Below are positions 14,904 to 51,933 of a stretch of DNA of 64,000 nucleotides, piece by piece. This stretch comes from an uncultured Chthonomonadaceae bacterium. Lineage in GTDB: Bacteria; Armatimonadota; Chthonomonadetes; Chthonomonadales; Chthonomonadaceae. Position numbers and translations under genes: made by a program. Every line of letters begins with the position of its first letter. Within the stretch, counting starts at the first letter, position 1. Where the stretch lies: NCBI GenBank assembly GCA_963835065.1, contig CAWIEK010000016.1, positions 96,001 through 160,000 on the forward strand, in the 5' to 3' direction. The notes beneath the pieces were generated by a model that was given only the letters and a program-made list of their open reading frames with translations, searched no databases and had not been told where the DNA came from.

Positions 14904-15005
14904 TATCTTCTCCAGGCAAAAGCCCATAAGACAAGGAATAAGGGTTAAGGGATAAGGAAAGAAAAAAGAAGAGAATAATTCATCGTTCATCCTTGCTTTT
15001 CAACC

Positions 15006-16613: not shown

Positions 16614-16652
16614 GATCTCCTCCAGAAAGCTGCTTTAGAAAAAAAGAGACAG

Positions 16653-16951
16653 AAAAAAGAGCAAAACAACGCCAAAAACGTGAACCTTTTGCCCAACTGG
16701 CGCTGTCTAAACAGTAATACAAACGTCTACTATACAGAGACGAAGGTTGAACGTTGGTAGTTCCTATCAACTATCAACTATCAACTATCAACTCAGGAAG
16801 GGAGGTGCCAGTCCTATGTTTCACCCCTCCCGTTCGCCTTGATGCTGCTGAGGCCACGACGCCTCACTCCTACAACCTGACACAACGAGACATCGGGCTG
16901 GAAGCGCTGCATTGCCAAGATTTCGACGATGACTCTACATACTCTTTTTCT
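16653..16951 (+). repeat. ~300 bp duplicated unit, copy 1: ECF-like promoter, (CTATCAA)x4, SD and small ORF(s)
   Basis: Homologous to 50907-51203; 69 bp core 16725-16793 identical. Confidence 0.9.
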
Positions 16952-16962
16952 ACCTGAGAGCC

Positions 16963-17072
16963 TCTCCCAACAGGCGCAGCATTTGCGTCTTGCGGACGCG
17001 GCAATCTTCCTACAGAGTTGCGTCCGCAGGACGCTTGTACTTTCCTGCCGGGGATTGAAAATCCCCGGCCAA
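16963..17072. repeat. REP-like family A, 110 bp copy
   Basis: Matches 8818-8927. Confidence 0.9.
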
Positions 17073-17123
17073 CAGGTGTACTTCCTGCCGGGAATTTCAA
17101 TCACCAACCACCAGCCACCAATC

Positions 17124-18257
17124 CTAGTTCACGTTGATACTCGCGTTGCCGCCCAGCACCTGTATGGTTGCGTCGGCATGTTGCGTACTGTCAAATTTGC
17201 TCGAGACGCGCACATGAAACGTGCCGCGCGCAGTCGGCGGCGTATAAAGGCCGCCGTATCGGCCTGTAGAGGGATCGCTCAAAACTTGCGTAATGGTTCC
17301 TCCGTCAGCGCTCCATGTCACGCCTCCAGCGCTGCCGGCGGCGTCGCCTTGCAGCTGTACCGCAAAGTTAATCTGGGGCGGGGGGTTGGGGGGCGAATAT
17401 ACCGGAGTGGTCGCAGATGTTGGACTCAAGGTAATACCTGGAACCACGTGAACCAATCCCGTGATACTAAAAGTCGGATCACTGCTGTTGGTGGAGAGTG
17501 TTAGCAGCGCAGTAATGGTAACATCCCCGGCATGAACAGGAACGAGAGTAGCCACATTATGGAGCGTGGTGACATTGACAGCATCACTGCCGGACGGGGT
17601 GAAGGTAAAAGCGCCATCCGCTACCGGAACCACGCTCGTGCCTGCCGCGTCGCTATACGCGGCTGCCGTGACACTCCCGTTGCTTCCCCCCACAACCAGG
17701 CCCGGCTGGTTCGAAAATGATTTAATTTGGACAATGTTGGTTTGCGGCGTAATGGAGAACTTTGTGTCCATGTCTGCCTGGATTGTCTTTTTAAGTTGGG
17801 CCTGCAGCGTCACCGGGGAGTTACCGTCGTATTCCGTTACAAACACCATTGTATCCCCCGTAGGCAGTACAAAGGTGTGGGCAGGATTTTGCCGGGTCAC
17901 GCTGAACATTTGCTGACCGCCCTGTGAGTCCTGAACGGCAATATCAATGTGGGTGGCATTGACCGGGATCAAGCGCCCGCCGGACGCCCCTGCTTGTTTG
18001 GAGGCGGCGCTGCTGCCGACGCCAACGGAGGGTTGGTAAGCGGGCCAATTCACCACCACTTGCAGCCTGCCGGTTTGCCGCGTGGAACTGGCGGCAGAGT
18101 TCGCGCCCCCGCCGCAGCCGCTCACAAGCGTCATCGGCAGCAGCAGCAGTCCGCAGCGCGGCAAAATGGAAGCGCGGGAACGGCGAACGCGGCGGAACCT
18201 GCCCGCAGGGATGGAAGGCAAAAACCGGGCAGACGAAAGAACAGCATTGAAGTTCAT
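17124..18257 (-). CDS. Ig-like domain lipoprotein
   Basis: VSGC lipobox; VNWP...RLIP motif; C-terminal VTWS...GLYTPP Ig domain. Confidence 0.8.
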   Translation of the reverse strand: MNFNAVLSSARFLPSIPAGRFRRVRRSRASILPRCGLLLLPMTLVSGCGGGANSAASSTRQTGRLQVVVNWPAYQPSVGVGSSAASKQAGASGGRLIPVNATHIDIAVQDSQGGQQMFSVTRQNPAHTFVLPTGDTMVFVTEYDGNSPVTLQAQLKKTIQADMDTKFSITPQTNIVQIKSFSNQPGLVVGGSNGSVTAAAYSDAAGTSVVPVADGAFTFTPSGSDAVNVTTLHNVATLVPVHAGDVTITALLTLSTNSSDPTFSITGLVHVVPGITLSPTSATTPVYSPPNPPPQINFAVQLQGDAAGSAGGVTWSADGGTITQVLSDPSTGRYGGLYTPPTARGTFHVRVSSKFDSTQHADATIQVLGGNASINVN

Positions 18258-18536
18258 GGCGATCAGGACACCCTTCCGGCATTGACATGCCCACAAACAT
18301 TTCGGAAGACAAAAAATCGCAGGACGAAAAAAAGAGGGAACCGGAAAATAATTCACCTGTATTTTATACCGTTTTCCTCGTTTTTACGCTATAATGGAAA
18401 AAATTATTTTCTGATGTCTACCCAATGCCTCCTGTTTTTTACTGCGTCGTTGCGGTTTTTGACGCAGTACGACAGTTTTGACCCATTTCCGCACTGCTTT
18501 CGCCCTCCCATCCATCCGGCGAGGCTGGAGAACAAG

Positions 18537-19598
18537 ATGCGCCCTGCGTTTCGACTTCTGCTTTTGTTAAACATGATTTGCTTCGGCGTCGCAGCGCTGT
18601 CGGGCTGCACCAACGACACCAGTTCGTCCGCCGGGCTTGTGACCCGCGCCGTCACCTTTCGAATCCAGTGGGGAGCCACGCCTTCCCTTGATCAGACCGG
18701 TCCGGCTGGCGTTCTGACCGCTCCCTCGCAAGCGCGTTCCGCCTCGCTGAAGTTGCTGCAAGCCAACCCCGATCTTTCGGATCTCACTTTTTCCGCCGAG
18801 CGCGACCTGACGCCGGCGACGCTGAATCAAACCCCCCCACAAAATTATCAGGTTCCTTCGGCTGTTCGGGTCGGGTCGCTGGTGTTGGTTGCCACTTTCT
18901 ACGAAAAGCCTGACCCCACCGCGCCCGGCAATACGCCCATCGGCATGCTGACCACCACGCATACCGTGATGGCAAACACGTCCAACACCATTGTCATCAA
19001 TACGATCAATCCGCCTGCCAGCATTGTAATCGCGAAAAACCAGAGCGTCCTTGCCAATGGCAAGCCGAACGCGCTGATGTTCACCCCATTTAATATGGAC
19101 GGTGAACCCGCTCCCCTGAACCTGCTTTCGGATGCGGTCAATATCGCGGTCACGGCGGGCAATGGCTATCTGAGCGTGGACTCGAACAATATGATTTTAG
19201 GGCTGTCTTCCGGCGTCGCCACCGTGGTTGTCACCGTGACAACCACGACGGCATCGGGGAAAGTTCCCTTGTCCAGTACGCCTGAACTCGTGACGGTCAA
19301 CCCGAACATTGTCGTCAGCATTGACCCGCCGCCCGGACCGATTCCCGTGAAAATCGGCACTTACCAGTTCACAGCCCACGTAACCACAGTGGATAAAACC
19401 CCTCCCTCCAAAACCAATGTGACCTGGTCGGTGCAAGGGGGATCGCTCGGCACGATTGACCTGAATTCCGGCTTGTATACGGCCCCGGCCACAGCGGGCA
19501 AATATACTGTCATCGCCACAAGCCAGGCCGATACGGGGCAGACCGCAACGGCAGCCATTACAGTCGAGGGAGGAAGCGGCAATGTCATCATTCAGTAA
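18537..19598 (+). CDS. Ig-like domain lipoprotein
   Basis: LSGC lipobox; VTWSV...GLYTAP Ig domain. Confidence 0.8.
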   Translation: MRPAFRLLLLLNMICFGVAALSGCTNDTSSSAGLVTRAVTFRIQWGATPSLDQTGPAGVLTAPSQARSASLKLLQANPDLSDLTFSAERDLTPATLNQTPPQNYQVPSAVRVGSLVLVATFYEKPDPTAPGNTPIGMLTTTHTVMANTSNTIVINTINPPASIVIAKNQSVLANGKPNALMFTPFNMDGEPAPLNLLSDAVNIAVTAGNGYLSVDSNNMILGLSSGVATVVVTVTTTTASGKVPLSSTPELVTVNPNIVVSIDPPPGPIPVKIGTYQFTAHVTTVDKTPPSKTNVTWSVQGGSLGTIDLNSGLYTAPATAGKYTVIATSQADTGQTATAAITVEGGSGNVIIQ

Positions 19599-21189
19599 AA
19601 CACTCAGGGCGCTGGGGCTTTTCCTTCCGGCCCTGCTGGCGCTTGCTCTGCTGGCGCTGTCAGGCTGTGGCGGGGGTGGGGGAGTCGGCGTCAAAAACAC
19701 GAAGGGCAGCGGCAAAGTGACCTTTACCGTGACCTGGCCGCAAACGGGAGCCGACAGAAACACCCGCGTGATCCCCATAGACACCCAGAGCATTGTCGTT
19801 TCGCTGAAGACAACCGGCAGTTCGCCGGTGGAGGTTGGAAACGTCGCAATCACAAGGCCGGCGCAGGGCTATTCCACAACCACCACTACCTCGCTGAGCG
19901 ATTTGCCGGCAGGAAAACTGGACGTCACCGTGAAAGCCTATGCGGCAGCCAAGCCGCAGCCGGATGCGGTTCCCCTGGCTGTCAATGCGCCCTTTCAAAT
20001 TGAAATCACCGCCAATGCCAGCAAAGACATTCCGATTACTCTGAACAGTACGGTCACGGAAGTGGATATCAACGCGGTTGCGTCCGCCTCCTTAATCCCC
20101 GGCCAGACCCTCCAACTGAGCGCCACCGCCTACGATAAAAGCGGCGGCGGCAGCAGCATTGTTCCGGTCGGTTCCTTTGCCTGGTCTTCCAGTAACTCCA
20201 ACGTCGTTACCATAGACGCCGCCACCGGGCTTGCCACCGCCGTCGGCCTGGGACAAGCCACCATCACCGTTACCGAAAGCGCTTCGGGGCAAACCAATCC
20301 GCTGACCCTGACAATCACGACGGGCGACATTTTCAGTATCGCCATTCACGGCGCTTCGCCCCTGCGGTTGTCCGCGAACCAGGCGGTCACTCTCACCGCG
20401 GACGTCCTTGACAAGAACAAGTATCCCATTCAGCTGAATAACCTGCAATGGAGTTCCGACACGCCGGGCGTGGTGGACGTTCAAAGCGATACCAGCACGA
20501 CAAATACGCATAGCATCCGAGGACTGAATCCGGGAACCGCCCGCATTACGGTGTCCGTCACGACGGGAACGGGAGTACACAACAGCCTGCCCCTGGTCAT
20601 CAACGTCGGACCGGGCGGACTGGCAACATTGTCCATTGCCCCTGCCGCGCCAAATCAGTCCGGCACTATCAATGCCAATACCAATCTCACCTTAACGGCA
20701 ACAGGGGCGGACGCGGGCGGCAATCCGGTCGTCCTGTCACCGGGCAATCTGACCTGGGATTCTACCAATAAGAGCGTGGCGACGGTGACAACAGATGCCA
20801 ACGGCAATGGAGTGGTTCATGCGCTGCTGAAAGGGCAAACCAATATCACGGTGACGGAAACGAGTTCCCAGATTACATCAAAGAACCCGTTTACGGTAAC
20901 GGTGCGCCTGGTGGTCAGCGTCAATCCCATTGCGGCCATTACTTTCGGCCAAACGGTTCAATGCAAGGCTGTGGTGACGGGAAGCAGCGTACAGGACGTA
21001 ACGTGGGCGCTGCAGCCGGGGTCGCTTGGAACCATTAACGCCACTACCGGCGTGTACCAGGCTCCGAGTACGCCGACGAGTTCCGTAACCTACTATGTGA
21101 TCGCAACGAGCAAGGACGATCCCAATCAAAAATCTGATCCTGCGCCAATCGTCGTGCAGGGGGGAACAGGCACAATTACGGTTCAGTAA
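19582..21189 (+). CDS. Multi-Big_2 Ig-like domain lipoprotein
   Basis: LSGC lipobox; repeated WSSSNxxVxTID...GxATITVT units. Confidence 0.88.
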   Translation: MSSFSKTLRALGLFLPALLALALLALSGCGGGGGVGVKNTKGSGKVTFTVTWPQTGADRNTRVIPIDTQSIVVSLKTTGSSPVEVGNVAITRPAQGYSTTTTTSLSDLPAGKLDVTVKAYAAAKPQPDAVPLAVNAPFQIEITANASKDIPITLNSTVTEVDINAVASASLIPGQTLQLSATAYDKSGGGSSIVPVGSFAWSSSNSNVVTIDAATGLATAVGLGQATITVTESASGQTNPLTLTITTGDIFSIAIHGASPLRLSANQAVTLTADVLDKNKYPIQLNNLQWSSDTPGVVDVQSDTSTTNTHSIRGLNPGTARITVSVTTGTGVHNSLPLVINVGPGGLATLSIAPAAPNQSGTINANTNLTLTATGADAGGNPVVLSPGNLTWDSTNKSVATVTTDANGNGVVHALLKGQTNITVTETSSQITSKNPFTVTVRLVVSVNPIAAITFGQTVQCKAVVTGSSVQDVTWALQPGSLGTINATTGVYQAPSTPTSSVTYYVIATSKDDPNQKSDPAPIVVQGGTGTITVQ

Positions 21190-21204
21190 ACAAAGGAGCC
21201 ACAC

Positions 21205-21888
21205 GTGAAGTTTTCGCATGGAGCCGCTCCCCTGCTGCTGCTGACGGCAGGGGTGACTTCGATTTCTCCAGCACGGGCGCAATTCGCAGGCTTCACCGGC
21301 AATGCGCGCTACGATGCTTCCGCAAAACAGGGCGCGGTTCCTTATGGCTCCCTTTCCATCTACCCGGTCGCCATTTTTGCAACCGCGGGACGCAACATCG
21401 TCAGTAACGCCAACGGCAATGATGTTTCGGGCGCGGTTTCCGTAGGTGGTACGCTGATTTCGGGCGACGTGGGCGTGAAACTGCCCCGCTCGCGCAGCGC
21501 GCTGGAACTCGGCGGCTGGTATTGGGCCAATGGCGACACAGGACTGTATCAGGCGCAGGGACGTTTTTTCTTCACGCCGCAATTGGGCGTACAGCTGGCC
21601 TATCTCGGCGCGACGCGGGTAGCCGGGAGCGCCTACAGCGGCTTTGTGGTCTACGATCTGACGTCGCGGCAGTTTGCGCGCCGCTTACGTCCGCGCTGGT
21701 CTGCGGAACTCGGTCTGGGGCTGCTGCGCGATACGAGCGGCGGGCAGGACACGACGGATTTCTCGCTGTTCCTGTCAGCCTCGGTGGAAATCGCCCCGCG
21801 CATCAGTATCAACGCCAGCCAATGGTTCTTGCGCGACCGCTCCTCCGACCTGAACCGCTTCGCGCTAGGCGTCGGCTTTTCGTTTTAG
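21205..21888 (+). CDS. Secreted protein, probable small outer-membrane beta-barrel
   Basis: Signal peptide, alternating amphipathic strands, C-terminal GVGFSF. Confidence 0.7.
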   Translation: MKFSHGAAPLLLLTAGVTSISPARAQFAGFTGNARYDASAKQGAVPYGSLSIYPVAIFATAGRNIVSNANGNDVSGAVSVGGTLISGDVGVKLPRSRSALELGGWYWANGDTGLYQAQGRFFFTPQLGVQLAYLGATRVAGSAYSGFVVYDLTSRQFARRLRPRWSAELGLGLLRDTSGGQDTTDFSLFLSASVEIAPRISINASQWFLRDRSSDLNRFALGVGFSF

Positions 21889-22133: not shown

Positions 22134-25100
22134 ATGTTGTACGCTGACAAAAGGCTTTGGAATGTGGCGCGGAAGACCATTCTTGGCGGGGTTCTTGCAA
22201 TCCTTGCCGGACGCGGGGGGGCGCAGATACCTGCGCAGCCGCCGCTGACAACGATGGAAACGCCCCGCCTGCGCATGGAAACGGGCGGGCATATCGGCGC
22301 GGTTCACAGCCTGCTGTTTACGCCTGCCGATGCCGCGCATCCTGAAAACGTGAAGTTGATTTCCTGCGGCGCAGATAAGGTGGCGCGCGTTCATAAGCCG
22401 GCGCAGGACGATGCCGACGCGCTGCGCTTCCAGATCGGGGAAGGGACCGGCGGGCAGTTTTATGCGGCTGCGCTTAATCCCATGCAGCCCAACCAACTCG
22501 CGTTGGGTTCCAGCGGCGGGGACATCAAAGCTGACAGCGACATTCTGCTCACGGATATCAACACGGGCAAGCTCCTCGTGGATGGCGCAACGGGCAAGAC
22601 CATCGGGCGGCTGACAGGACACAAGGACACAATCACCGGCCTGGCATACTCCCCGGACGGCAGCCTGCTCGCGTCATGCGGCGCGGACGGCAGGCTCCTG
22701 CTGTGGAACTTCAACATCCCCGTTAAAACGGCGGGGAAAACGACAGGCAAAACCGCCGCCAGAACAAAGGTCCCTGCATCCGCCGGAACCTTCTCGCCCA
22801 CTGCCGCCCTGATGTTCGGCAAGCCCACGTCGCAGCCTCTCCTAGAGAAGGGCGAGTACATGTCGGGCGTGGCGTTTGCCTCTAATGGCGGTTATCTTGC
22901 CGCCACGAGCTGGCGCCTGGAAGACGACGAGCATCGTGGAGTCCTGCGCATCTGGCAAGTGGATGCCGCCCATCATCTGACGCTTTCCCACACGTTTGAA
23001 TGGGGCAGCGATGTGTTGTGCGTGGCCTGGGCGCGGCCTTCCAGCCGCTATCCGCAGGGACTGCTGGCGTATGGCTCGGAAGACGGTGTGATCCACCTGC
23101 GCGACCCCGGACAAAAATTCGCCGAACAGCCGCCGCTCACAATCCCGAACGACAGCATCACTTGCCTTGCCTTCAACTACGACGGCACGCGCCTGTTGAG
23201 CGGCAGCGGCAGCCGGGGCCATGATGTGACGGTCAGGGTCTGGTCGCTGGAAAACAACAGCCAGATTCAAGCCTTTGACCGGCACGTCACGACGGTTCAC
23301 AGCGTGGCGTTCGCGCCGGACGGCAAAACGGCGGCAAGCGGCGATGCGTTCGGCATGGTGTACCTGTGGAACGCGGAAACCGGCAAGCAGATACGCGCGT
23401 TCAAAGGACCGGGCAATCCCGTTTTCACGGTGGCGTGGCTGGACGGCAACCACGTGGCGTGGGGCAACACTTACGGGCGCGAAAGGCTGGAACATGCGTT
23501 TGATTTGAGCGCGGGCAATCCGATTCCGCGTTTCAAGCCACAGGGGTATGGAGGAACCAGAGCGCAGTCTACGTGGATGGCAGCCGCTCATCCCACTCCC
23601 GGCAAAAACAAGCCGATGCCGTTTATGGCTTTGTCCGCCCTGCCCGATGATTCCGGCGTGATTGTCCGGGATAGCAAGGGGCGCGAAACGCAGCGCATCA
23701 AACTGGGGATTACGGATCACCTGCGCTGTTTCAGTTTCCTGCCGAACGGCAAGGTGGCTGTCGGCTCCGATCTCGATCTGGCCGTGTACAACGTCAGCGG
23801 CAGATACGTCCACAGGGAAGTGAGTTTTGAGGGGCACGAAGGCCCGGTTCTCGCCCTTGCCGTAGACCCGACAGGACAGTATCTCCTGTCAGGGGGCGTG
23901 GATCAAACGGTTCGGCTGTGGAGCCTCAAAGACGCCGAACGCGCCCGCTCCACGAGGCCCGAAGACATGGGCGCGGCGAGTCCGAACGGCGCAAGCGGCA
24001 GCCGCGTGACCGCAAACGCCGCAAATGCCGCAAATGGAAATGGCGCGGACGCGAACAAGCCCCGCCTGACTGCCCAAAGCCGCGCCATTCAACAGTTGGA
24101 CGAGTCCAACCTGGCAATGCCGCGCCCGCAGCCAAAACCCGCGCCTGCCATCACATCTCTGCTTGGCGTTTTCGAGGGCGACGGCGGCGTGTGGGTGGCG
24201 TGGGCGCAAAACGGCTACTATGCCGCGTCCCCGTCGGGCGAAGACGTGCTGGGCTGGCACATCAATCAGGGCGCGGACATGCCCGCCGAGTTTCTGACCT
24301 CGTACCGGTGTCCGCAGTTTTATCAGCCCGAAGTGATCGCGCAGGTATGGCAAAAGGGCGACTTAAACCGCGCGCTGGCCGCCGTGTTTCCCAACAACAG
24401 CCGCCCCGACCTGAACACGCCCCTGCCGCAGCAAATCGCTGGCGTTCCTATTCTGGAGTCCGCGACGGTATGGGTGGGCGACAACCGATTGGAACCTGAC
24501 GCCACCGGCGTGTATCACACCGACGCCAAGCAGGTCAGTCTGAAATGCGCCTTCCGCCCGTCGAGTTCGCCAATCACCGCGCAGGCAGCGCTTAACCATG
24601 CCAATGGCAAGCCGTTTGCGCTTGTTATCAGAAAAAGTTTAGAGCAGGGACTCATCCCCCGGCAATCTACGGAACAGACGCTGGATGTTCCCAGTCTGGA
24701 TGCCGGCCTGAACACCATTCGCATCTATGCGCAGAACGACAGCGGCATCAGCGATAATTCAGTGCGCGTGGAGCGCATCGCTTCTGCGCAACCGCAAACC
24801 CTGCGCGTACTGGCGGTAGGCATCAGCGAGTACAACGACCCCGGTCTGCGCCTGCAGTACGCCCATAAGGACGCGGAGGCAATACGGGACTTTTTCCAAA
24901 GCAATGCGCAAGCCGGCGGCAAAAAGCTGTTCGATGACGTGAAAACCGTTCTGGTAACAAATCAGGACGCCACGCGGAAAAACATCGAAAGCAAAATGGA
25001 AGATTTGCTGAAAGATGAGAAGCCGGAGGATACCGTTCTGCTGTACTTTTCCTGTCATGGCTTTGACGCGGAGGGCAGGGAGGGCAAGACCTACTACCTG

Positions 25101-25604
25101 GCTCCCGCCGATGTCGCGGTCAAGCATACGCAGGGCGGCAGGAACACGATTCAAAACGGCTACGCCTGGAAGGACATTCTGGCGCGGCTGGCGAATGTGA
25201 AGGCGAAGCACATCATTGTGATGGTGGACCATTGCTTTGCCGGCGGCGTCAGCGAAACCCTGAATGACCCGCGCTTCCTCCTGGACAATGAGGACTTCAA
25301 GGATCAGAACGAAACCTTGCGCGAACTGCGGCAAAACAACATCCTGGTTTTCACCGCGTCTGCGGCCACAGAGTACAGTTACGAAGACAAAAATCGCGAA
25401 CACGGCGCGTTCACGGCTTCCGTTCTGGACGCCCTGCAAGGCAAGATGGATGCGGTTCTGTACCCAGACAATCTAGCACAGTTGAACGCGCTGGACTTCT
25501 GGGTTCCGCAGCAGGTGTCCGCCAACTTCAGTTCGCAGCATCCCGGCCTGTTCGCCCTGCCGAATGCCGACAAAGCGGTTCCACTGGCAGTGATTAGGCA
25601 TTAG
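22134..25604 (+). CDS. WD40-repeat protein with C-terminal caspase-like peptidase C14 domain
   Basis: GH...WD-type repeats; LAVGISEY, YFSCHG and MVDHCFAG (His/Cys dyad), HGAFT; probable signal peptide. Confidence 0.92.
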   Translation: MLYADKRLWNVARKTILGGVLAILAGRGGAQIPAQPPLTTMETPRLRMETGGHIGAVHSLLFTPADAAHPENVKLISCGADKVARVHKPAQDDADALRFQIGEGTGGQFYAAALNPMQPNQLALGSSGGDIKADSDILLTDINTGKLLVDGATGKTIGRLTGHKDTITGLAYSPDGSLLASCGADGRLLLWNFNIPVKTAGKTTGKTAARTKVPASAGTFSPTAALMFGKPTSQPLLEKGEYMSGVAFASNGGYLAATSWRLEDDEHRGVLRIWQVDAAHHLTLSHTFEWGSDVLCVAWARPSSRYPQGLLAYGSEDGVIHLRDPGQKFAEQPPLTIPNDSITCLAFNYDGTRLLSGSGSRGHDVTVRVWSLENNSQIQAFDRHVTTVHSVAFAPDGKTAASGDAFGMVYLWNAETGKQIRAFKGPGNPVFTVAWLDGNHVAWGNTYGRERLEHAFDLSAGNPIPRFKPQGYGGTRAQSTWMAAAHPTPGKNKPMPFMALSALPDDSGVIVRDSKGRETQRIKLGITDHLRCFSFLPNGKVAVGSDLDLAVYNVSGRYVHREVSFEGHEGPVLALAVDPTGQYLLSGGVDQTVRLWSLKDAERARSTRPEDMGAASPNGASGSRVTANAANAANGNGADANKPRLTAQSRAIQQLDESNLAMPRPQPKPAPAITSLLGVFEGDGGVWVAWAQNGYYAASPSGEDVLGWHINQGADMPAEFLTSYRCPQFYQPEVIAQVWQKGDLNRALAAVFPNNSRPDLNTPLPQQIAGVPILESATVWVGDNRLEPDATGVYHTDAKQVSLKCAFRPSSSPITAQAALNHANGKPFALVIRKSLEQGLIPRQSTEQTLDVPSLDAGLNTIRIYAQNDSGISDNSVRVERIASAQPQTLRVLAVGISEYNDPGLRLQYAHKDAEAIRDFFQSNAQAGGKKLFDDVKTVLVTNQDATRKNIESKMEDLLKDEKPEDTVLLYFSCHGFDAEGREGKTYYLAPADVAVKHTQGGRNTIQNGYAWKDILARLANVKAKHIIVMVDHCFAGGVSETLNDPRFLLDNEDFKDQNETLRELRQNNILVFTASAATEYSYEDKNREHGAFTASVLDALQGKMDAVLYPDNLAQLNALDFWVPQQVSANFSSQHPGLFALPNADKAVPLAVIRH

Positions 25605-25690
25605 GCATTAGGCATTAGGCATTAGAGAAGAGAGAAGAGATATTCAGCTAGGTATAAGGGTACATCACCTAATGCCTAATGCCTAATGCC
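25593..25690. repeat. Heptamer hairpin (GGCATTA)n/(TAATGCC)n overlapping the caspase stop codon
   Basis: The gene ends ...VIRH* inside the array. Confidence 0.92.
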
Positions 25691-25707
25691 TTCCCGAAGG
25701 AGTACCA

Positions 25708-28326
25708 ATGGCATTTCCGGGCAAAGCGACCAAAGATTTTTTTATCAGTTACAACCAGAAAGATCAGCACTGGGCTGAATGGGTTGCCTGGGAACTGGAA
25801 GAAGCGGGCTATACGGCGATTGTGCAGGCGTGGGACTTTGGGGCGGGCAGCAACTTCGTCGTGGAAATGGATGAGGCCGCCAAAAACGCCGAACGGACGC
25901 TGGCGCTGTTGTCGCCGACGTATATCGCCTCCATTTTCACGCGCCCCGAATGGGCGGCGGCATTTGCGGACGACCCGACCAGCGTGAATCGCAAACTGAT
26001 CCCCATTCGCGTGGAAGAGTGCGAACTGACCGGGCTGCTGCGGCAGATCGTGTACATTGATCTTGTCGGCAAGGAGGAGCAGGACGCCCGCGAAATCCTA
26101 CTGGCGCAGATCAAGGTCACGGAACGCGCCAAGCCGGCCACGCGCCCCTCATTCATGGGCAGCCGCAAGCCGGAAGTACAGGCGGTTGTTGCCGTAACCC
26201 CGTCCGCGCCCGGCGCGGAAAGTTCCCGCCCCGGTTTCCCGACCGCCAATGCGCCGTTTCAAGTGCCGTATCCGCGCCTCGCCTTTTTCACGGGGCGAGA
26301 CGATCAACTGAATGCGCTGCATCAGGCGCTTATCGGGGGCGGGCGTACCACCGCGATACAGGCGCTTACCGGATTGGGTGGCATCGGCAAAACGCAAATG
26401 GCCGTTGAGTATGCGTACCAGTACCGGGAAGAATACAGCGCGATCTTATGGGCGCGGGCCGAAAACGAGCAGCAATTAAAGACGGACTTTGTTGGTATCG
26501 CCAAATTGCTGGACCTGCCGGAGCAGGACGCGCCGGATCAGGACGAAACCCGCGATGCGGTGAAGCAGTGGCTTGCCTGCAACGAAAAGTGGCTGCTGAT
26601 ACTGGATAACGTGGACGCGCCGGCTGCCGTGAAACCGTTTCTGCCCGTGATTCACAGTGGCTGCGTACTGCTGACAACGCGCTCACAGGACGTACGCGCG
26701 CTGGGGATCGCCATGCCGCTGACCTTGCCGGAACTGTCGCCGAACGAAGCGCAAGCCTTTCTGCTGAAAAGCACCGGGCGCGAAAACGCCGAGCCGCAAG
26801 AGTGCGCGGCGGCAAAACAATTAGGCGTGGAATTGGGCGGGCTGCCACTCGCGCTGGAACAGGCGGCGGCATACGTCGGGCAAAACGACACGCCGTTTCA
26901 AAGCTACCTCAAATCTTTTAAGAAGCGCCGCCTGGCCCTCCTTAATGCGCAGGACCCCGTACAGGGCGATTATGCCCATTCGGTCGCTACGACATGGGAC
27001 ATCAATTTTCAGGTCATACAGCGCAAATCCCCGGCATCGGTAGAACTGCTCAACCTGAGCGCGTTTCTTGCCCCGGAACGGATTCCGCTGGAACTGCTCA
27101 TCAAATCTGCTGCGCTGCTTGGGCCTAAACTGGAAGACGCGCTGGATGGAGCCGAAGAAGACGAACTGGTTCTGGACGATCTGCTGCTGCCCCTGACGCG
27201 CTACTCGTTGGCGCATCGTCAGCGTCAGTCCAACAGCTACGACGTTCACCGGCTGGTGCAGGCCGTGACGCGCCAGAATATGGACGACGCGCAGCGCGAA
27301 TTGTGGACGGAGCGGGCCGTGTGTGCGGTCAGCCAATCGTTCCCCGAAGCGACGGTTGAAAATTGGCCGGCTTGCGAGCGGCTGTTGTCCCACGCCCTGA
27401 TTTGCGCCGACCACATTGCGGCGGAAGGGTATGAATTTGAACCCGCTGTAGCGCTGCTGATTCAACTGGGCAATTATCTGTATGACCGCGCGCACTACGC
27501 CCTTGCCGAACCACTGATGGCGCGGGCGTTGGCCCTGCGGGAAAAAACGCTGCCCGCCAACGATCCCCAAATCGCCGAGCGCTGCATCAATCTGGCGGTG
27601 GTGTATTACCGTCAGCAGCGGTATGCGGAAGCGGAAGACTTGTACACTCGCGCGCTTCATATTTCGGAGGAGCATTACGGCCCAGAACATCCCGATGTTG
27701 CGTACTGCTTGAACAATCTGGCCGTGCTTTACATGGATCAGAATCGGTACGAGGAAGCGGAACCTTTATATCTTCGCGCCCTACACATACACGAAACCGC
27801 GCTCGGCCCCAATCATCAGCATACTGCCACAAGTCTGAATAATCTGGCGCTGCTGCTGCAGCATCAGGGACGCTTGCGGGAAATGGAGCCGCTGTACCGC
27901 CGCGCCTATCGCATCGTGGACAAGACGCTCGGCCCCGAACACCCGGATACCGCCATGATCCTGAATAATCTGGCCGAACTTTACGAGCAGTTGAACCGCT
28001 ATGTGGAAGCGGGGATGCTGTACCGCAGAGCGCTTGGCATTTTAGAAAAAGTATGTGGCGCGGAGCATCCCTTTGTCGCCTACGTGGTGGCGCATCTGGC
28101 CGGGCTGTATGATGAGCAGGGGAAGTACGATGAATCGGAAGCGCACTACTGCCGCGCCCTGTCCATTTTCACCAACATTCTGGGCTGTGACCACAAGGAA
28201 ACCTCGCAGTGCCGCGACAAGTACACGGCCCTGCTGCGCTCCCTGGGGCGCGACGACGAGGCCGACACGCTCACGCAAAACGCGCAAATCGTGGTGCAGA
28301 CGCGAGAAAGCGCAGTGCGGCGATAG
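25708..28326 (+). CDS. TIR - NB-ARC (STAND NTPase) - TPR protein (bacterial NLR-like)
   Basis: TIR DFFISY...LSPTY...TRPEW; Walker A GLGGIGKT; Walker B WLLILDNVD; GLPLAL; about seven LGPEHPxxAxxLNNLA TPRs. Confidence 0.95.
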   Translation: MAFPGKATKDFFISYNQKDQHWAEWVAWELEEAGYTAIVQAWDFGAGSNFVVEMDEAAKNAERTLALLSPTYIASIFTRPEWAAAFADDPTSVNRKLIPIRVEECELTGLLRQIVYIDLVGKEEQDAREILLAQIKVTERAKPATRPSFMGSRKPEVQAVVAVTPSAPGAESSRPGFPTANAPFQVPYPRLAFFTGRDDQLNALHQALIGGGRTTAIQALTGLGGIGKTQMAVEYAYQYREEYSAILWARAENEQQLKTDFVGIAKLLDLPEQDAPDQDETRDAVKQWLACNEKWLLILDNVDAPAAVKPFLPVIHSGCVLLTTRSQDVRALGIAMPLTLPELSPNEAQAFLLKSTGRENAEPQECAAAKQLGVELGGLPLALEQAAAYVGQNDTPFQSYLKSFKKRRLALLNAQDPVQGDYAHSVATTWDINFQVIQRKSPASVELLNLSAFLAPERIPLELLIKSAALLGPKLEDALDGAEEDELVLDDLLLPLTRYSLAHRQRQSNSYDVHRLVQAVTRQNMDDAQRELWTERAVCAVSQSFPEATVENWPACERLLSHALICADHIAAEGYEFEPAVALLIQLGNYLYDRAHYALAEPLMARALALREKTLPANDPQIAERCINLAVVYYRQQRYAEAEDLYTRALHISEEHYGPEHPDVAYCLNNLAVLYMDQNRYEEAEPLYLRALHIHETALGPNHQHTATSLNNLALLLQHQGRLREMEPLYRRAYRIVDKTLGPEHPDTAMILNNLAELYEQLNRYVEAGMLYRRALGILEKVCGAEHPFVAYVVAHLAGLYDEQGKYDESEAHYCRALSIFTNILGCDHKETSQCRDKYTALLRSLGRDDEADTLTQNAQIVVQTRESAVRR

Positions 28327-28486
28327 GCAGGGAATTAGCCGCGAATGAACGCGAATGAACGCGAATGGTTCATCATGAGGAAACCCCCGTAATGTGAGTA
28401 TCTCGTCACCGGTGAGTTGTCCTACGACGCTCACCGGAAAACCAGTCAAAGAATATAATTGGTTCAAGCGGGGTTTTAGAAAGATA

Positions 28487-29290
28487 ATGCGAATGGCGTT
28501 GATGGCGGCGCAGGCAATTGATTTTGGCGGGGAATGGCACACGCGTATGGTGGTTGCTTCCGATGCTGCCGATGCCGGGGCTATTCTGGATGCGCTTGGT
28601 TTGGAGTTGCCGGACGCCGTACTGATGATTTTTGGCGGCGCGGCCCACATGGAAACGGGATTGGAAACGGAGATTGCGGCGGCGTTTCGCAATTCTATTT
28701 TGCCCATTGTCGCCGCCTGCAACGCCCTGATTATAGATGGCGGGACGCAGGCGGGCATTATGGAGATCGTAGGCGCATTGGGCGCGGAAGGTACGCCGCG
28801 CCCGATTATGCTTGGCGTGGCTCCCCTGGGCGCGGTGACGTTTCCCGGCAAGGCGCAAATGGCGGACGTTCATGGTTTTGCCGCTGTGCCGGAAGCGGAA
28901 ATCGGTGGTCTTGCCCCACTCGATCCCAATCATTCCCACTTCGCGCTGACGCCCACAACCGAATGGGGCAGCGAAACGGCAACCATGTTCCAACTGGCCG
29001 TCGCGCTTTCAAAGCGGGAAGCCAAACCGCGCCCCCTCGCCGCGCTGCTGTTTAACGGCGGCATGATCGCCAAACAGGAAGCCCTGCAATGTATACGGCA
29101 GGGCTGGCCCCTCATCGCGCTGCAGGGAACCGGGCGGCTGGCCGACCAGATCGCGCAGGCCAAATCACAGCAACCCCTCACGCCCGAAGATACCGAACTG
29201 GCCGAAATCGTCACAAGCGATAGGCTGAAGGTGGTTTCCCTTGCCGATGTTGCCGACGCGCTGGGGGAGGCATTAGATATTAGATATTAG
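28487..29290 (+). CDS. TRPM-like SLOG (LSDAT-type) domain protein
   Basis: IFGGAA, IIDGGTQAGIM, LGVAP, LDPNHSHF, WGSET, NGGMIA, GTGRLAD. Start codon uncertain. Confidence 0.88.
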   Translation: MRMALMAAQAIDFGGEWHTRMVVASDAADAGAILDALGLELPDAVLMIFGGAAHMETGLETEIAAAFRNSILPIVAACNALIIDGGTQAGIMEIVGALGAEGTPRPIMLGVAPLGAVTFPGKAQMADVHGFAAVPEAEIGGLAPLDPNHSHFALTPTTEWGSETATMFQLAVALSKREAKPRPLAALLFNGGMIAKQEALQCIRQGWPLIALQGTGRLADQIAQAKSQQPLTPEDTELAEIVTSDRLKVVSLADVADALGEALDIRY

Positions 29291-29387
29291 GCAGAAGAGG
29301 GAACAGGGAACAGGAGAGGATGCCCTATCAACTATCATCTATCAACTATCAACTCCTGATTCATCCTTCATCCCTCATCCTCATCCC
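29269..29387 (+). repeat. Composite repeat cassette between the SLOG and SLATT ORFs
   Basis: (GGCATTA/GATATTA)-(GGGAACA)-(CTATCAA)-(TTCATCC); linkers shared with 56193-56341. Confidence 0.9.
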
Positions 29388-29401
29388 GGAAGGTCACTGC
29401 G

Positions 29402-30431
29402 ATGCTCACGGACGCCTGGAAGCTGTATGCGAGTTATGATTACAACGCGCAGCTTCAACAGAAAAACTTTCGCCGCTATCAGGGTACGCTGCTGCTGCTT
29501 GGATTGGCGGCAACGCTGCTGGCAACGCTGCTGGCCGGACGGCAGATGGGCCAGATGAGCGGCTTTTGGAAGCTGTCGTTCGTGCCAAATGATAATATCT
29601 TTACGACGGCGATTGTGCTGATAACCGCCGCCACGTCCGGCCTGTTAAGCGCTCTGAGCCGCTACAAGCCGGGAGAAAAATGGCTGGCCCTGCGCGCGTC
29701 GGCGCAATCGGTGCAGCGGGAGATTTATGGCTATCTGATGCAGGCGGGCGAATACCGCGATCATCCTGAACCCGCGCTGTTGTACCACCGATTAAACGCG
29801 ATTTCTACGGGATTGGCCGACATCATTCTGCACGAGCCGATGGCGGCAAGCGCGCAGCCTGCCGATATGGAGCAAGCCGGTAGTTGAAACCTTTCCCATG
29901 ACGCCGGAGCATTATGTCGCGCTGCGCCTGACCGATCAGGCCGCGTACTATCACCGCAAGGTTGGCAAACTGAACCGGCAGGCGCAATGGCTGCACGGAG
30001 CCAGTATTGTGGCCGGCACGGCGGGAACCATCCTTGCCCTGCTCAACCACCCCCTGTGGGTTCCCTTTACGGCGGCGGTAACGACAGCCTGCATCAGCTA
30101 CCTGCAGCAGCGGCAAATCGAAGTGACGCTGGCGCAGTACAATCAAAGCGGCAACAGCCTGGAGCGTATTGATCGCTGGTGGCGCAACGAACTGACCGAG
30201 ACCGAGCGCGCGCTGCCGGAAAACCGGGATAAGCTCGTCAGCTTCACCGAAGACATTCTCGCGGCGGAACTGACCAGTTGGACGCAAAAACTCAGCGAAG
30301 CGATGGCGAAGATGGCGACTCCCCCGACGGGAGAGGCAAAAGGAACTTTGACCGCTCCCAATCCTGTCGCGCCTGCTCATGCTGCGCCCGGCCCCGCGCT
30401 CCCTCCCATTGTAAATCAAAAAATAATATGA
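29402..30431 (+). CDS. SLATT/DUF4231 double 2-TM effector protein; frameshift ~29880
   Basis: Two TM pairs; KWLALRASAQSVQREIY; MTPEHYVALRLTDQAAYY; LVSFTEDILAAELTSW. Confidence 0.85.
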
Positions 30432-30499
30432 CTCTCACTTCCGATACCGTTATAGTATCGGAAGTGAGGTCCGTTATACCCTGTATGGAGGCAAGTTGG

Positions 30500-31531
30500 A
30501 TGCGCAAAGTTCGTTGTGCCTTTGTTTTGTTGCTGGCGGCGCTTCTCGCGCCTGTCGGTCTGCAGGCGCAGTCTGTTGCGCCGCCCAAACCCATTCGTTA
30601 CCACCTGGCGGACTGCCATCTGCATCTGGTGGACTTTTTGCAGCATACCGATGGCATCAAGGCGCTGCTGAAGGCAATGGATCGCAGCGGCGTAGACGAA
30701 GCCATGCTCTGCGGGATGCCTCTTGTTAAGGAGTGGTCGCTTTCGGAACCAACCCCGCCCCAGTATTATCTGGACGACGACAGCCGCTGCTACTGGTACT
30801 CCGCGACGGACATTCTGGTCGCTCGCCAGATCGAATCGCTGTCGCCCAACGAGCGGAAGCGCTTCCATCCCTTCATCTGTGGGTTCAACAGTCAGGATCG
30901 CAACGCCATCGAGCATGTAAAGCGTATGCTGGAATGGTATCCGAACGTGTGGCAGGGTATCGGCGAAGTGATGACCCGCCACGACGATCTGAGCGCCCTC
31001 ACGTATGGGGATGCGGCGCATGCGGACAGCGTTTCGCTGGACCCGCTCTACGAACTGGCGGCGCAGTACGACATGCCCGTATCGGTGCATAGCGATGTGA
31101 GTTCCGTGTGGAAGCGTGAGCCGCTTTATCTTCACGAAATCGAAAATGCGGTCAAGAAGCACCCGCATACGCGCATCATCTGGTGTCACGCGGGCGTGAG
31201 TCGGCGCATTGACGTGCCCACACTGGCCGGGGAAGTCCGCCGGCTTCTCGCCACCTATCCCAATGTGTATGTGGATCTGTCCTGGGTCGTCTTTGAAACG
31301 TACCTCACCAAAGATAATCAGCCCGTCAACGATTGGGTCAGCCTCATCGAAGCATTCCCGACACGCTTTATGATCGGTTCGGACAAGGTAGGCAAGTTCG
31401 ACGACTACCATAAGGAGATGCAGAAATACTACGTTTTACTCGACGCCCTCAAGCCTGACACAGCCCGCAAAGTGGCCCGCGACAACTTCCTGGCCCTCCT
31501 TCCGCGCGCGCAGCAAGCGGCGGGGCATTAA
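30500..31531 (+). CDS. Secreted amidohydrolase-2 family metallo-hydrolase
   Basis: SD GGAGG; signal peptide; DCHLH, GIGE, WCHAG, GSD. Confidence 0.9.
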   Translation: MRKVRCAFVLLLAALLAPVGLQAQSVAPPKPIRYHLADCHLHLVDFLQHTDGIKALLKAMDRSGVDEAMLCGMPLVKEWSLSEPTPPQYYLDDDSRCYWYSATDILVARQIESLSPNERKRFHPFICGFNSQDRNAIEHVKRMLEWYPNVWQGIGEVMTRHDDLSALTYGDAAHADSVSLDPLYELAAQYDMPVSVHSDVSSVWKREPLYLHEIENAVKKHPHTRIIWCHAGVSRRIDVPTLAGEVRRLLATYPNVYVDLSWVVFETYLTKDNQPVNDWVSLIEAFPTRFMIGSDKVGKFDDYHKEMQKYYVLLDALKPDTARKVARDNFLALLPRAQQAAGH

Positions 31532-32317: not shown

Positions 32318-33265
32318 ATGAGGAGGCGCGTGGTGATCTTTGCGCTAAGTTGTTTATGGCTGGCTGTTGCCGGCAGATTGTGTGGGCAGGAGGAGCAAGC
32401 GGGCGCGGGTAAGACTGCGCCTTCGGTTGAAGTTACTCGCGCAATGGCGGGAGAAACGTATCGCGTTCCTTATCGCCTGAGCGACACCAAGCATATCTTG
32501 ATACGCGCCCGAATCAATGGCAAAGGGCCGTTTACGTTTATACTGGATACGGGCGCTCCCGCCATCTATGTGGCAAGCGACGCGGCCAAACAGATTGGCT
32601 TGAAGGCCGCGAAAAACGGGTGGGCAAATATAACGCGCATGGAAGTGGAAGGCGGCGCAGTTGTCGAAAACGTGGCCGCGCGGCTGGAAGACCCGACGCC
32701 CCTCAAAGGCATGAACGCGCTCGGAATGGAAGGTACGCATATTGACGGCATTTTGGGTTACAACCTGCTGGCCCGCTTTGCGATAGACATTGACTTGTCC
32801 CGCCCGCGCCTGCTCTGGACGCGGCAGGAAGCGTTTGCGGATGACGTGCCGGACATGCAGGCGCTCACGGGTGGCAAGCCGATCACACTGCCCAAAAGCA
32901 TGGCGCAAATGGACAGCATGGCGGCCAATCTGCCCAAGATGATGGCGAAATTAAAGACCGATACCCTTATACGCGGGTTTGTGGGCATTGAACTGCTGCC
33001 TGACAACGGGGCGGGCAATGTGGCGGGACAGGTACGCATTGCCCGCGTCCTTGCCGATAGCCCTGCTGCCCGCGCCGGGCTGCGGGAGGGAGATATTATT
33101 CGCGCTCTGGCTTTGGGTACGTCGCCGTTTCAGCCGGTGACGCATGCTGCCGACGCGCTGCGTTTGGCGCGCGATTGGGAAGCCGGCAAGCCGGGACGGT
33201 TGCAAATACTTCGGAATGGCGGCAAGCGCGAAGTCGTGGTGACAGCCGGGGCGGGAGGGTTTTAA
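32318..33265 (+). CDS. Secreted retropepsin-like aspartyl protease with PDZ domain
   Basis: FILDTGA, DGILG, SPAARAGLREGD. Confidence 0.9.
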   Translation: MRRRVVIFALSCLWLAVAGRLCGQEEQAGAGKTAPSVEVTRAMAGETYRVPYRLSDTKHILIRARINGKGPFTFILDTGAPAIYVASDAAKQIGLKAAKNGWANITRMEVEGGAVVENVAARLEDPTPLKGMNALGMEGTHIDGILGYNLLARFAIDIDLSRPRLLWTRQEAFADDVPDMQALTGGKPITLPKSMAQMDSMAANLPKMMAKLKTDTLIRGFVGIELLPDNGAGNVAGQVRIARVLADSPAARAGLREGDIIRALALGTSPFQPVTHAADALRLARDWEAGKPGRLQILRNGGKREVVVTAGAGGF

Positions 33266-34329
33266 TGGCAGCAGGGAGACGCTATTTAAATAGGAAGGGA
33301 ATTCGGTGTTTTGCGAGCCGCGTTCCCGCGCAAAATGCCGGGGCGTTGCGTAATCGGCTCCTCTTCATGAGCATAATGGCGTGGCTTGGAATCGGCTGCG
33401 GCAGCGTCAAAGCGCAGGAGCGAACCAACACTACAAACGCTGCTAAATCCGTGTTCACACAGGCGCAACCGGGGCAGTCCATACAGGCAGCGACGGCGGA
33501 GACGAAAGCAAGTCATCCCGTTGTAAGAGTAACCGGACATGAAACACTGGAAATTTTACCGTCTCGGCATCTTGCGCTGCGGGTAATCCTCAATGGAAAA
33601 GGGCCGTTCCGCATGATCTTGGATACCGGATCGCCCATTACCTTCATTACCAACGCCGCCGCTCTGAAAAGCGGGCTGCTGAAAGCGCAGCAGGCCAATC
33701 AGCCCGCGCTGTTCGGGATGCGCGGGCAGGTGATAGCGAAAACAATCGGTGTCGGCAAAACCTTGCTGAACGACTTTCCTTTACTGGTGCTGGATCATCC
33801 CGTAATCGAAACCTTGCAGCAGGTGGAAGGCCCGCTTGACGGCATTTTAGGGTTTTCCTTTTTCGCGCGCTACCGCACGGTGATTGATTATGTCCATAAA
33901 AGCGCGCAGTTTACGCCCAACGGTTATCAGCCGGAAGATTTGTTAGGCAGTTTGATGACGCGGCTGATGAGCAATCAGGCCAGCCATCGGAATCTGGCTT
34001 CTCTGGGATTGTGGGGAATGGAAGTGGCGCAAGCCGCCGCGCCAAAAGCCTCACCGACACCAAAATTCTCACAGCCCGGGCAAAAGGCGGAGCAAAACGA
34101 TCCACAGCCGGGCATTATAATTACCCGCGTGTATGCCGATAGCGCCGCCGCGCAGAGTGGATTGCAAGCGGGAGATCGCCTGCTGTCTGTTGAGGAACAT
34201 TGGACGGACACGCTGGAAGATTGCCTGGACGCGGCAGGTCAGATCAAGCCGGGAGAAAAAACCACGTTGCATATTCTACGCGATGGTAAGCCTCTGGATA
34301 TTGTGATTACCCCGCGCATCGGGCTGTAA
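33265..34329 (+). CDS. Secreted retropepsin-like aspartyl protease with PDZ domain (paralog)
   Basis: MILDTGS, DGILG, SAAAQSGLQAGD; TAATG stop/start coupling with the upstream gene. Confidence 0.88.
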   Translation: MAAGRRYLNRKGIRCFASRVPAQNAGALRNRLLFMSIMAWLGIGCGSVKAQERTNTTNAAKSVFTQAQPGQSIQAATAETKASHPVVRVTGHETLEILPSRHLALRVILNGKGPFRMILDTGSPITFITNAAALKSGLLKAQQANQPALFGMRGQVIAKTIGVGKTLLNDFPLLVLDHPVIETLQQVEGPLDGILGFSFFARYRTVIDYVHKSAQFTPNGYQPEDLLGSLMTRLMSNQASHRNLASLGLWGMEVAQAAAPKASPTPKFSQPGQKAEQNDPQPGIIITRVYADSAAAQSGLQAGDRLLSVEEHWTDTLEDCLDAAGQIKPGEKTTLHILRDGKPLDIVITPRIGL

Positions 34330-45515: not shown

Positions 45516-45783
45516 GTCGTCTCCTGAAGGTTTTGCATGCTTCCGTATGTCACTTTGAAAGTTGGACGTGTTTTCCTGCCGCCTCGTTACTTTTACGCTA
45601 TTGCAATGTTGGTTCCAAAAGCCGCGCAAAAGGTTCAGAGCTAATGATAAAAATCCAACAAGCAGTAACACAAATAGCCCCTCCCCTGGCGAAGGAAGCG
45701 CGTTTACTGCGCTTACAACGCGCTCATTTGAAAGCGCGGCCAGGAGAGGGGTATGTCCACAGTTGGACGCCCGTGAGGTAACT

Positions 45784-51859: not shown

Positions 51860-51871
51860 AGAAAGAACCCT

Positions 51872-51924: not shown

Positions 51925-51933
51925 AAAGCAGAT

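What the first reader, a model, noticed from the sequence alone, without database searches (positions are those of the whole stretch)
22134..31531. Candidate NLR-triggered, Thoeris-like immune locus: caspase-WD40 / TIR-STAND-TPR / TRPM-SLOG / SLATT / amidohydrolase
Seen: five co-oriented genes. The TIR keeps a Glu at the expected catalytic position (TRPEW), the STAND Walker A/B motifs are intact, the caspase has its His/Cys dyad, and a SLOG domain is followed by a 4-TM SLATT. Known: TIRs cleave NAD+ into ADPR-derived signals; the Thoeris ThsA SLOG binds such a signal; the SLOG-like MHR1/2 region of TRPM2 binds ADPR; SLATTs are predicted membrane effectors; STAND-TPR proteins (Avs) sense phage proteins. 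Inference: TPR sensing drives STAND oligomerisation and a TIR signal that gates a SLOG-controlled SLATT pore, a prokaryotic parallel to TIR-NLR-to-channel signalling. I do not recall this combination as a named system. The caspase and amidohydrolase appear secreted and may be bystanders.
Basis: partly seen in the sequence, partly recalled or inferred. Interest (0 to 1): 0.82.

Follow-up and report, generated by a model that had tools for sequence, protein, structure and literature searches.

The report
NLR-TIR beside TRPM2-like sensor and pore
This bacterium carries three neighbouring genes (an NLR-type receptor with an NAD-cleaving head, a stand-alone copy of the ADP-ribose-binding domain of the human TRPM2 channel, and a four-helix membrane protein) that likely form an untested alarm relay related to the Thoeris anti-phage systems, while the two flanking genes are probably bystanders.

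Summary
The core is three genes: TIR-NB-ARC-TPR, a TRPM-clade SLOG (Pfam LSDAT_prok, far closer to TRPM2 than to ThsA), and a double SLATT. The SLATT is frameshifted in this assembly but whole in near relatives.

SLOG and SLATT are one module: fused in 43 of 80 related genome loci. A TIR or DrHyd domain lies within 2.5 kb in 23 of 53 loci with full flanks. A TIR-type STAND protein sits one or two genes away in 6 of 80, but this exact order was seen only in one congener. The NLR is therefore one of several interchangeable partners, and it also occurs without SLOG.

The SLOG keeps two of three TRPM2 ADPR-contact positions. The TIR is nearly invariant while the TPR sensor varies. The amidohydrolase is unlinked in relatives, and the caspase looks secreted.

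Best reading (0.5): TIR-made ADPR-type signal, SLOG reader, SLATT membrane effector; nothing is tested. This is a new variant of Thoeris-like signalling, not a member of any type. The scan noted the same trio, and TIR plus SLOG-SLATT generally, before on other genomes.

The parts
25708..28326 (+). TIR-NB-ARC(STAND)-TPR protein, 872 aa; predicted sensor and signal maker. TIR Glu81 kept; TPR region variable between strains.
   Evidence: Pfam TIR_2, NB-ARC, DUF7779, TPR_10/12; NCBIfam NF040586 389 bits, cut-off 300; motifs; 32 of 41 differences to P0121 lie in the TPR
28487..29290 (+). Stand-alone TRPM-clade SLOG (LSDAT_prok), 267 aa; predicted ADPR-type ligand reader
   Evidence: Pfam PF18171 E 2e-39; profile best hit TRPM2 E 2e-26; model pLDDT 91, TM 0.71-0.80 to TRPM chains; W160 = TRPM2 Y295, R217 = R358, M167 at R302
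29402..30431 (+). Double SLATT (DUF4231/SLATT_3 + SLATT_1), 4 TM; predicted membrane effector. Frameshifted near 29883 in this assembly.
   Evidence: Pfam and NCBIfam; whole in L007, P0244, P0245, P0247 and across the junction in P0246; one-base difference in two runs; hydropathy
22134..25604 (+). WD40-caspase (C14) with signal-peptide-like N-terminus; adjacent in the congener too, probably the end of the upstream cluster of secreted proteins rather than part of the relay
   Evidence: paralogs with signal-like N-termini in the same genome; no caspase within 2.5 kb in any of 53 SLOG loci; more distant caspases in L007, L036, L038
30488..31531 (+). Amidohydro_2 protein with hydrophobic N-terminus; bystander
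   Evidence: Not found in G002 (80% complete) or G001 (97% complete); different context in G011; in run X1 its contig has 869 unrelated letters upstream

Best explanation
The TIR-STAND-TPR, TRPM-type SLOG and double-SLATT genes likely form a three-part alarm relay in which the TPR array would recognise an invader protein, the STAND domain would cluster the TIR heads so that they cut NAD+ into an ADP-ribose-type signal, and the free SLOG would bind that signal and switch on the predicted SLATT membrane effector. Shown: domain anatomy, intact catalytic motifs, the SLOG's TRPM2-clade fold with two of three ligand-contact positions kept, the SLOG-SLATT link and TIR enrichment around such SLOGs. 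Inferred: every functional step. My best guess for the signal is ADPR or canonical cADPR rather than 3'cADPR. The NLR is a local, exchangeable trigger on a wider TIR-coupled SLOG-SLATT module that is split into two genes in this lineage. The caspase and amidohydrolase are not part of it.
For: - SLOG and both SLATT domains share one ORF in 43 of 80 genome loci. The split pair recurs in L007 and, by matching contig lengths, on four more contigs.
- TIR/DrHyd domains: 17.3 per 100 kb within 1 kb of the SLOG ORF, 2.1 at 7-10 kb, about 0.1 in the own genome; within 2.5 kb in 23 of 53 loci. TIR-type domains lie near 28 of 80 loci from 11 phyla.
- TIR- or DUF4062-STAND proteins lie one or two genes from the SLOG in L007, L014, L015, L022, L039 (an archaeon) and L072, and in metagenome locus L131.
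- The neighbouring TIRs keep the catalytic Glu (14 of 14).
- TRPM2 Y295 and R358 positions are W and R in 49 of 49 stand-alone SLOGs.
- TIR under purifying selection (24 synonymous vs 2 non-synonymous codon differences to L007) while the TPR varies.
- TIR plus SLATT is a proven signalling pair using cADPR (type VII Thoeris; Shaseng).
- TRPM2 MHR1/2 binds ADPR and 8-Br-cADPR.
Against: - The exact order was found in 1 of 160 loci, a congener.
- 30 of 53 loci have no TIR/DrHyd within 2.5 kb, and a 17-member clade has none.
- Similar NLR proteins occur in 12 of 24 other family members; only G002 among them has the SLOG. G019 (75% complete) has a TIR-NB-ARC-TPR between a tricorn protease and a helicase.
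- TIRs on Avs-type proteins are treated as NAD-depleting effectors in the Thoeris survey.
- The R302 position is not conserved, and R358 is Gly in 17 of 41 fused homologues.
- No defence island surrounds the locus, and no PADLOC model covers the SLOG or SLATT.
- My TIR and DrHyd profiles were seeded from the neighbours themselves, so the distance gradient is somewhat inflated, and kin are not independent.
Confidence: 0.5

Rival explanations
1. The TIR-STAND-TPR is a self-sufficient Avs-like NAD-depleting effector. SLOG-SLATT is a separate module that settled next to it and answers to another of the genome's TIRs or to stray ADPR.
For: NLR homologues number in the thousands and occur without SLOG. 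The genome has 7 other TIR hits. The genes are separated by 103-160 bp gaps, two of which hold repeats found 21 and 66 times in the genome. Many fused SLOG-SLATT genes have no TIR nearby.
Against: The only SLOG and the only SLATT in 8 Mb follow a TIR gene directly, and the order is kept in a congener at about 70-90% DNA identity. TIR-STAND neighbours recur in five other phyla.
Confidence: 0.25
2. The TIR signal acts on the SLATT directly, as proposed for ThsH, and the free SLOG is a buffer or degrading enzyme that sets the threshold.
For: Type VII and Shaseng SLATTs work without a SLOG. Stand-alone SLOGs also sit beside other candidate effectors: DrHyd-TPR-S, patatin, TrkA-RyR. Some SLOG clades are enzymes (PMC9503650).
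Against: In 43 of 80 loci the SLOG is fused to the SLATT pair, and the model of one fusion joins them through a continuous helix (residues 245-314), as expected of a gating domain.
Confidence: 0.15
3. The module serves non-viral stress or envelope signalling, possibly together with the secreted caspase-WD40, rather than anti-phage defence.
For: The surroundings are secreted Ig-like and NHL proteins and housekeeping genes. Caspase-NLR adjacency is kept in L007 and in a contig of run X1. Many SLOG-neighbour TIRs carry WD40, YARHG, FGE-sulfatase or PDZ domains. Earlier scan notes report two-component-linked versions (unchecked here).
Against: Patchy distribution (2 of 61 relatives) and a fast-changing TPR on a frozen TIR fit conflict genes. 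No caspase lies within 2.5 kb in any of 53 loci.
Confidence: 0.1

Closest known systems
Prokaryotic LSDAT (TRPM-like) SLOG-SLATT conflict module (Pfam PF18171 + PF14015/PF18184 + PF18181; Burroughs et al. 2015, recalled, paper not held)
   Same: Same SLOG family next to the same SLATT pair.
   Different: Here SLOG and double SLATT are separate genes, and the upstream partner is an NLR-type TIR. In the searches run I found no experimental study of this module.
Type VII Thoeris (ThsB + ThsH; bioRxiv 10.64898/2025.12.03.692087) and Shaseng (bioRxiv 10.1101/2024.12.27.630466)
   Same: Catalytic TIR gene beside a SLATT membrane effector.
   Different: Those have plain TIRs and no SLOG reader; the survey removed Avs-type TIRs.
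Type I Thoeris (ThsB + SIR2-SLOG ThsA)
   Same: TIR signal read by a SLOG.
   Different: No SIR2. The SLOG is TRPM-clade: a fused homologue's model scores Z 26.0 (rmsd 4.0, 253 aligned) to a TRPM2 domain against Z 12.5 (rmsd 3.4, 166 aligned) to BcThsA SLOG.
Avs / bacterial NLRs, and TIR-AP-ATPase-TPR proteins of FxSxx-COOH systems (PMC7159879)
   Same: TIR-STAND-TPR layout; passes NF040586.
   Different: No Avs-named PADLOC hit; no radical SAM or zincin peptidase among the scanned window proteins; separate reader and membrane genes follow.
Animal TRPM2 MHR1/2 domain
   Same: Same fold and two of three ADPR-contact positions.
   Different: Free-standing protein; the partner membrane part is a SLATT, not a TRP pore; Met at the R302 position.

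Membership tests
LSDAT SLOG-SLATT module | LSDAT_prok SLOG above the Pfam cut-off | tested here: met
   135 bits, cut-off 25.4
LSDAT SLOG-SLATT module | Fused or adjacent SLATT_3/DUF4231 + SLATT_1 membrane protein | tested here: met
   Next gene, 111 bp downstream; four hydrophobic peaks
Type I Thoeris | SIR2-SLOG effector ThsA | tested here: not met
   No SIR2 domain on any of the five genes; SLOG is TRPM-clade
Type I Thoeris | ThsB-type TIR without an NTPase | tested here: not met
   TIR_2 fused to NB-ARC; no ThsB_TIR hit among the 21 families listed
Type VII Thoeris / Shaseng | Catalytic TIR gene in the same cluster as a SLATT gene | tested here: met
Type VII Thoeris / Shaseng | Plain TIR(s) plus SLATT, no SLOG reader | tested here: not met
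   A SLOG gene lies between them and the TIR is on a STAND; definitions
Type VII Thoeris / Shaseng | SLATT belongs to the ThsH sequence family | not tested
   No ThsH sequence was available; the preprint's tables were not seen
Type VII Thoeris / Shaseng | Phage-triggered canonical cADPR activates the effector | not testable with these tools
   Needs LC-MS and toxicity assays
Type IV Thoeris | Cytoplasmic caspase-like effector responding to N7-cADPR | tested here: inconclusive
   The caspase is WD40-fused with a hydrophobic N-terminal stretch and has signal-bearing paralogs elsewhere; no signal-peptide predictor was available
Avs (AVAST) | Effector-STAND-TPR architecture | tested here: met
Avs (AVAST) | Match to an Avs profile | tested here: inconclusive
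   No Avs-named model among the 5 PADLOC hits; that the library holds such models is recalled, not checked
Avs (AVAST) | Recognises a phage protein and defends alone | not testable with these tools
   Needs expression and phage challenge
FxSxx-COOH system | TPR-STAND protein above the NF040586 cut-off | tested here: met
   389 vs 300 bits
FxSxx-COOH system | Adjacent radical SAM/SPASM enzyme, zincin peptidase and precursor peptide (PMC7159879) | tested here: not met
   Neither enzyme among the 54 window ORFs scanned with Pfam; small precursor ORFs were not searched

The most novel reading that the evidence does not exclude
A bacterial NLR makes ADPR or canonical cADPR that is read by a free TRPM2-type MHR1/2 domain, which opens a separate SLATT channel in trans. 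This would be a bacterial NLR-to-second-messenger-to-channel pathway using the same ligand pocket as animal TRPM2, and a minimal system for asking which NAD-derived ligand that domain first evolved to read.
Probability: 0.35. Interest if true: 0.8.

Novelty: new variant of a known kind. Interest (0 to 1): 0.5.

Why it matters
The TRPM-clade SLOG is a close bacterial relative of the ADPR-gating domain of TRPM2, and I found no experimental work on it in nine literature searches. This locus offers it as a small, soluble, stand-alone protein beside a candidate signal maker and a candidate effector, so ligand identity and gating can be tested directly. If the relay holds, a bacterial STAND-TIR would be acting as a signal maker as plant TIR-NLRs do, a class the Thoeris survey set aside. 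The interest is tempered because the SLOG-SLATT pairing was predicted years ago (recalled), TIR-SLATT signalling is already proven, and the NLR link is local.

Tried and rejected
- Complex prediction of the congener's SLOG with its double SLATT: no verdict (score 0.00, mark 0.32). Not used as evidence either way.
- No solved relative of the double SLATT by sequence. The structure search with the fused model gave only TRPM/SLOG matches above Z 12 and generic helical matches for the SLATT part; the SLATT was not folded alone.
- No RNA holder listed.
- Promoter and terminator scan at chance level.
- SLOG not found in 50,697 phage records; 2 plasmid records, both annotated DUF4231 proteins.
- The SLOG query was out of frame; repeated correctly.
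- Read-through from SLOG into SLATT rejected: two stops in frame.
- A five-gene system rejected: the amidohydrolase is unlinked, and no caspase lies within 2.5 kb of 53 SLOG loci.
- The SLOG tree is the quick tree only. It shows the split forms as one clade (SH-aLRT 99) but does not resolve whether they arose by fission.
- Close SLOG/SLATT contigs of 519,480, 13,922 and 114,662 bases have no NLR among the top 120 hits. Uninformative, because frameshifted pieces under 479 aa could not appear.
- Burroughs 2015 and Burroughs & Aravind 2020 are not held.
- The Thoeris preprint's supplementary list of 29 putative types was not seen and might include this SLOG-SLATT effector.
Full report
Source. The genome has 8.0 Mb in 71 contigs. 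The closest locus, L007, comes from a record titled uncultured Chthonomonadaceae (Armatimonadota), so the window is probably from that family. The assembly carries indels: the alpha-2-macroglobulin gene is in several pieces.

Observation. Pfam confirms WD40-caspase, TIR_2-NB-ARC-TPR, LSDAT_prok SLOG, DUF4231/SLATT_3, SLATT_1 and Amidohydro_2 in that order on the + strand. The caspase dyad motifs, Walker A and B and TIR Glu81 are present. The SLATT is split by a frameshift. Contigs of near relatives in runs X1 and X2 lack one base at 29883 (depths 7.2 and 4.6, one contig each). P0246 reads across the junction, and L007, P0244, P0245 and P0247 are single 342-386 aa proteins. An alignment of 45 homologues gives four hydrophobic peaks.

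The SLOG. A 49-sequence profile matches 59 PDB sequences, 58 named TRPM and one 'cation channel family protein', with TRPM2 best and no ThsA. The model (pLDDT 91) matches TRPM chains at TM 0.71-0.80. Human TRPM2 holds ADPR with Y295, R302 and R358 (PMC6759353, passages). These align to W160, M167 and R217. W and R are kept in 49 of 49 stand-alone homologues; in 41 fused ones the Arg is kept in 21 and is Gly in 17. The pocket looks usable but not identical, so the ligand may differ from ADPR.

Distribution. PF18171 occurs in 2 of 61 relatives and 4 of 401 phylum genomes. L007 keeps the order barrel-like gene, caspase-WD40, TIR-STAND-TPR, SLOG, SLATT, and then diverges; the 'barrel-like' label is my reading of the sequence, with no Pfam hit. 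G001 (97% complete) has neither the SLOG nor SLATT_1.

Neighbourhoods. I fetched the best 80 of 181 genome matches and the best 80 of 536 metagenome matches; counts below use the genome set. Forty-five SLOG ORFs exceed 400 aa and 43 hold both SLATT domains; four more have a SLATT gene pair alongside. After dropping 27 loci with under 2.5 kb of flank, 23 of 53 have a TIR or DrHyd domain within 2.5 kb (11 of 34 long ORFs, 12 of 19 stand-alone), 4 a STAND and 0 a caspase. Density falls from 17.3 to 2.1 per 100 kb with distance, against 8 TIR hits in the whole own genome. The profiles were seeded from Pfam-verified neighbours, which favours nearby hits. Without the flank filter, 28 of 80 loci in 11 phyla have a TIR-type domain nearby, but 0 of 17 in one well-supported clade.

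The TIR partners vary: TIR-WD40, TIR-YARHG, TIR-TPR-S, TIR-PDZ, TIR-FGE-sulfatase and DUF4062. DUF4062 is a TIR-like NADase (10.64898/2026.05.01.722283, listing abstract and passages). TIR-type STAND proteins lie one or two genes away in 6 of 80: L007, L014, L015, L022, L039 and L072, plus metagenome locus L131. A TIR-NB-ARC-TPR like the window's appears only in L007 and, 4.3 kb from the SLOG ORF, in L039. Stand-alone SLOGs commonly abut a DrHyd-like/TPR-S protein, patatin or TrkA-RyR; the 'DrHyd' name for that N-terminal domain is recalled. That protein resembles in layout the cADPR-responsive ThsI (hydrolase plus TPR); I did not test homology. With the SLATT link, this is why I favour ADPR or canonical cADPR as the signal (inference).

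The NLR. It passes NF040586 and has at least 4,915 relatives among 7,999 candidates scored. It matches 13 of 41 relatives, of which only G000 and G002 have the SLOG. Against P0121 the TIR is 139/140 identical and the TPR 243/275; against L007 the TIR is 138/140 and the TPR piece 137/194. A variable sensor on a conserved enzyme fits an immune receptor, but not specifically a signalling one.

Flanking genes. The amidohydrolase was not found in G001, G002 or G019, and follows a D-Ala-D-Ala carboxypeptidase in G011. In X1 its contig is unlike the window upstream; in X3 a short identical contig bridges the SLATT end and its start. The caspase has a hydrophobic N-terminus and signal-bearing paralogs. 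In X1 and X2 only 13 letters replace the 220-base gap to the upstream gene, tying it to the secreted-protein cluster. It does stay next to the NLR in L007 and X1, so a role is not excluded. No defence island surrounds the locus (54 window ORFs scanned). PADLOC gave only weak domain-level hits on 2 of 6 ORFs.

Mechanism. The most likely reading is TPR sensing, STAND clustering, a TIR-made ADPR-type signal, SLOG binding and SLATT activation (0.5). Rivals: an autonomous NAD-depleting NLR beside an independent module (0.25); direct SLATT gating with the SLOG as buffer (0.15); non-viral signalling (0.1). All functional steps are inferred.

Literature. Seen: 10.64898/2025.12.03.692087 (passages and sections 5, 8, 10; supplements not seen). 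Passages only: 10.1101/2021.01.06.425286 (47), PMC9503650, PMC7159879, 10.1101/2024.12.27.630466 (107), 10.1101/2023.05.26.542521 (109, which names LSDAT beside a TPR core). Burroughs 2015 and Burroughs & Aravind 2020 are recalled only. Searches listed no experimental study of an LSDAT SLOG-SLATT system or of an NLR-triggered one; subscription journals are largely outside that library. The scan's own notes hold the same trio on another genome and eight related TIR/SLOG/SLATT loci; these are unchecked AI notes, not support.

Verdict. A real, probably functional three-gene variant of TIR-coupled SLOG-SLATT signalling. It works like Thoeris by inference and is a member of no described type. Interest 0.5.

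Noticed in passing
window 38817-45869 (-): Bacterial alpha-2-macroglobulin gene in at least four ORFs, probably assembly indels.
   Followed up: no
window 13211-21888: Cluster of lipoprotein-like genes with Ig-like (Big_2) or NHL repeats, ending in a barrel-like gene without a Pfam hit, just upstream of the caspase.
   Followed up: partly
window 25600-25700, 28335-28368, 29298-29381: Short simple intergenic repeats; two of them have 66 and 21 exact 24-base copies in the genome. A longer dispersed element near 16650-16970 has dozens of matches in G002.
   Followed up: partly
window 51772-52467 (+): SocA/Panacea antitoxin-domain gene in a lower-GC stretch (about 50%); partner toxin not looked for.
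   Followed up: no
L039 1053-12905: Archaeal (Candidatus Nitrosocosmicus) locus: DUF4062-STAND, fused SLOG-SLATT-SLATT, TIR-NACHT-pentapeptide and TIR-NB-ARC-TPR in a row.
   Followed up: partly
L014 4916-10741: One 1,668-aa TIR-nSTAND1-TPR-S-patatin protein directly upstream of a stand-alone TRPM-type SLOG.
   Followed up: partly
L022 3012-12250: TIR-nSTAND1-WD40, RyR-TPR-S-cyclase, fused SLOG-SLATT and a TIR gene in one run; RyR domains also flank the SLOG in L031 and L040.
   Followed up: partly
L095-L108, L158: Recurrent Verrucomicrobia-like cassette: TPR-S-trypsin, DUF4231 SLATT, DrHyd-like/TPR-S, SLOG, patatin, with an endonuclease upstream.
   Followed up: partly
window 32318-34329 (+): Tandem secreted aspartyl protease-PDZ genes.
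   Followed up: no
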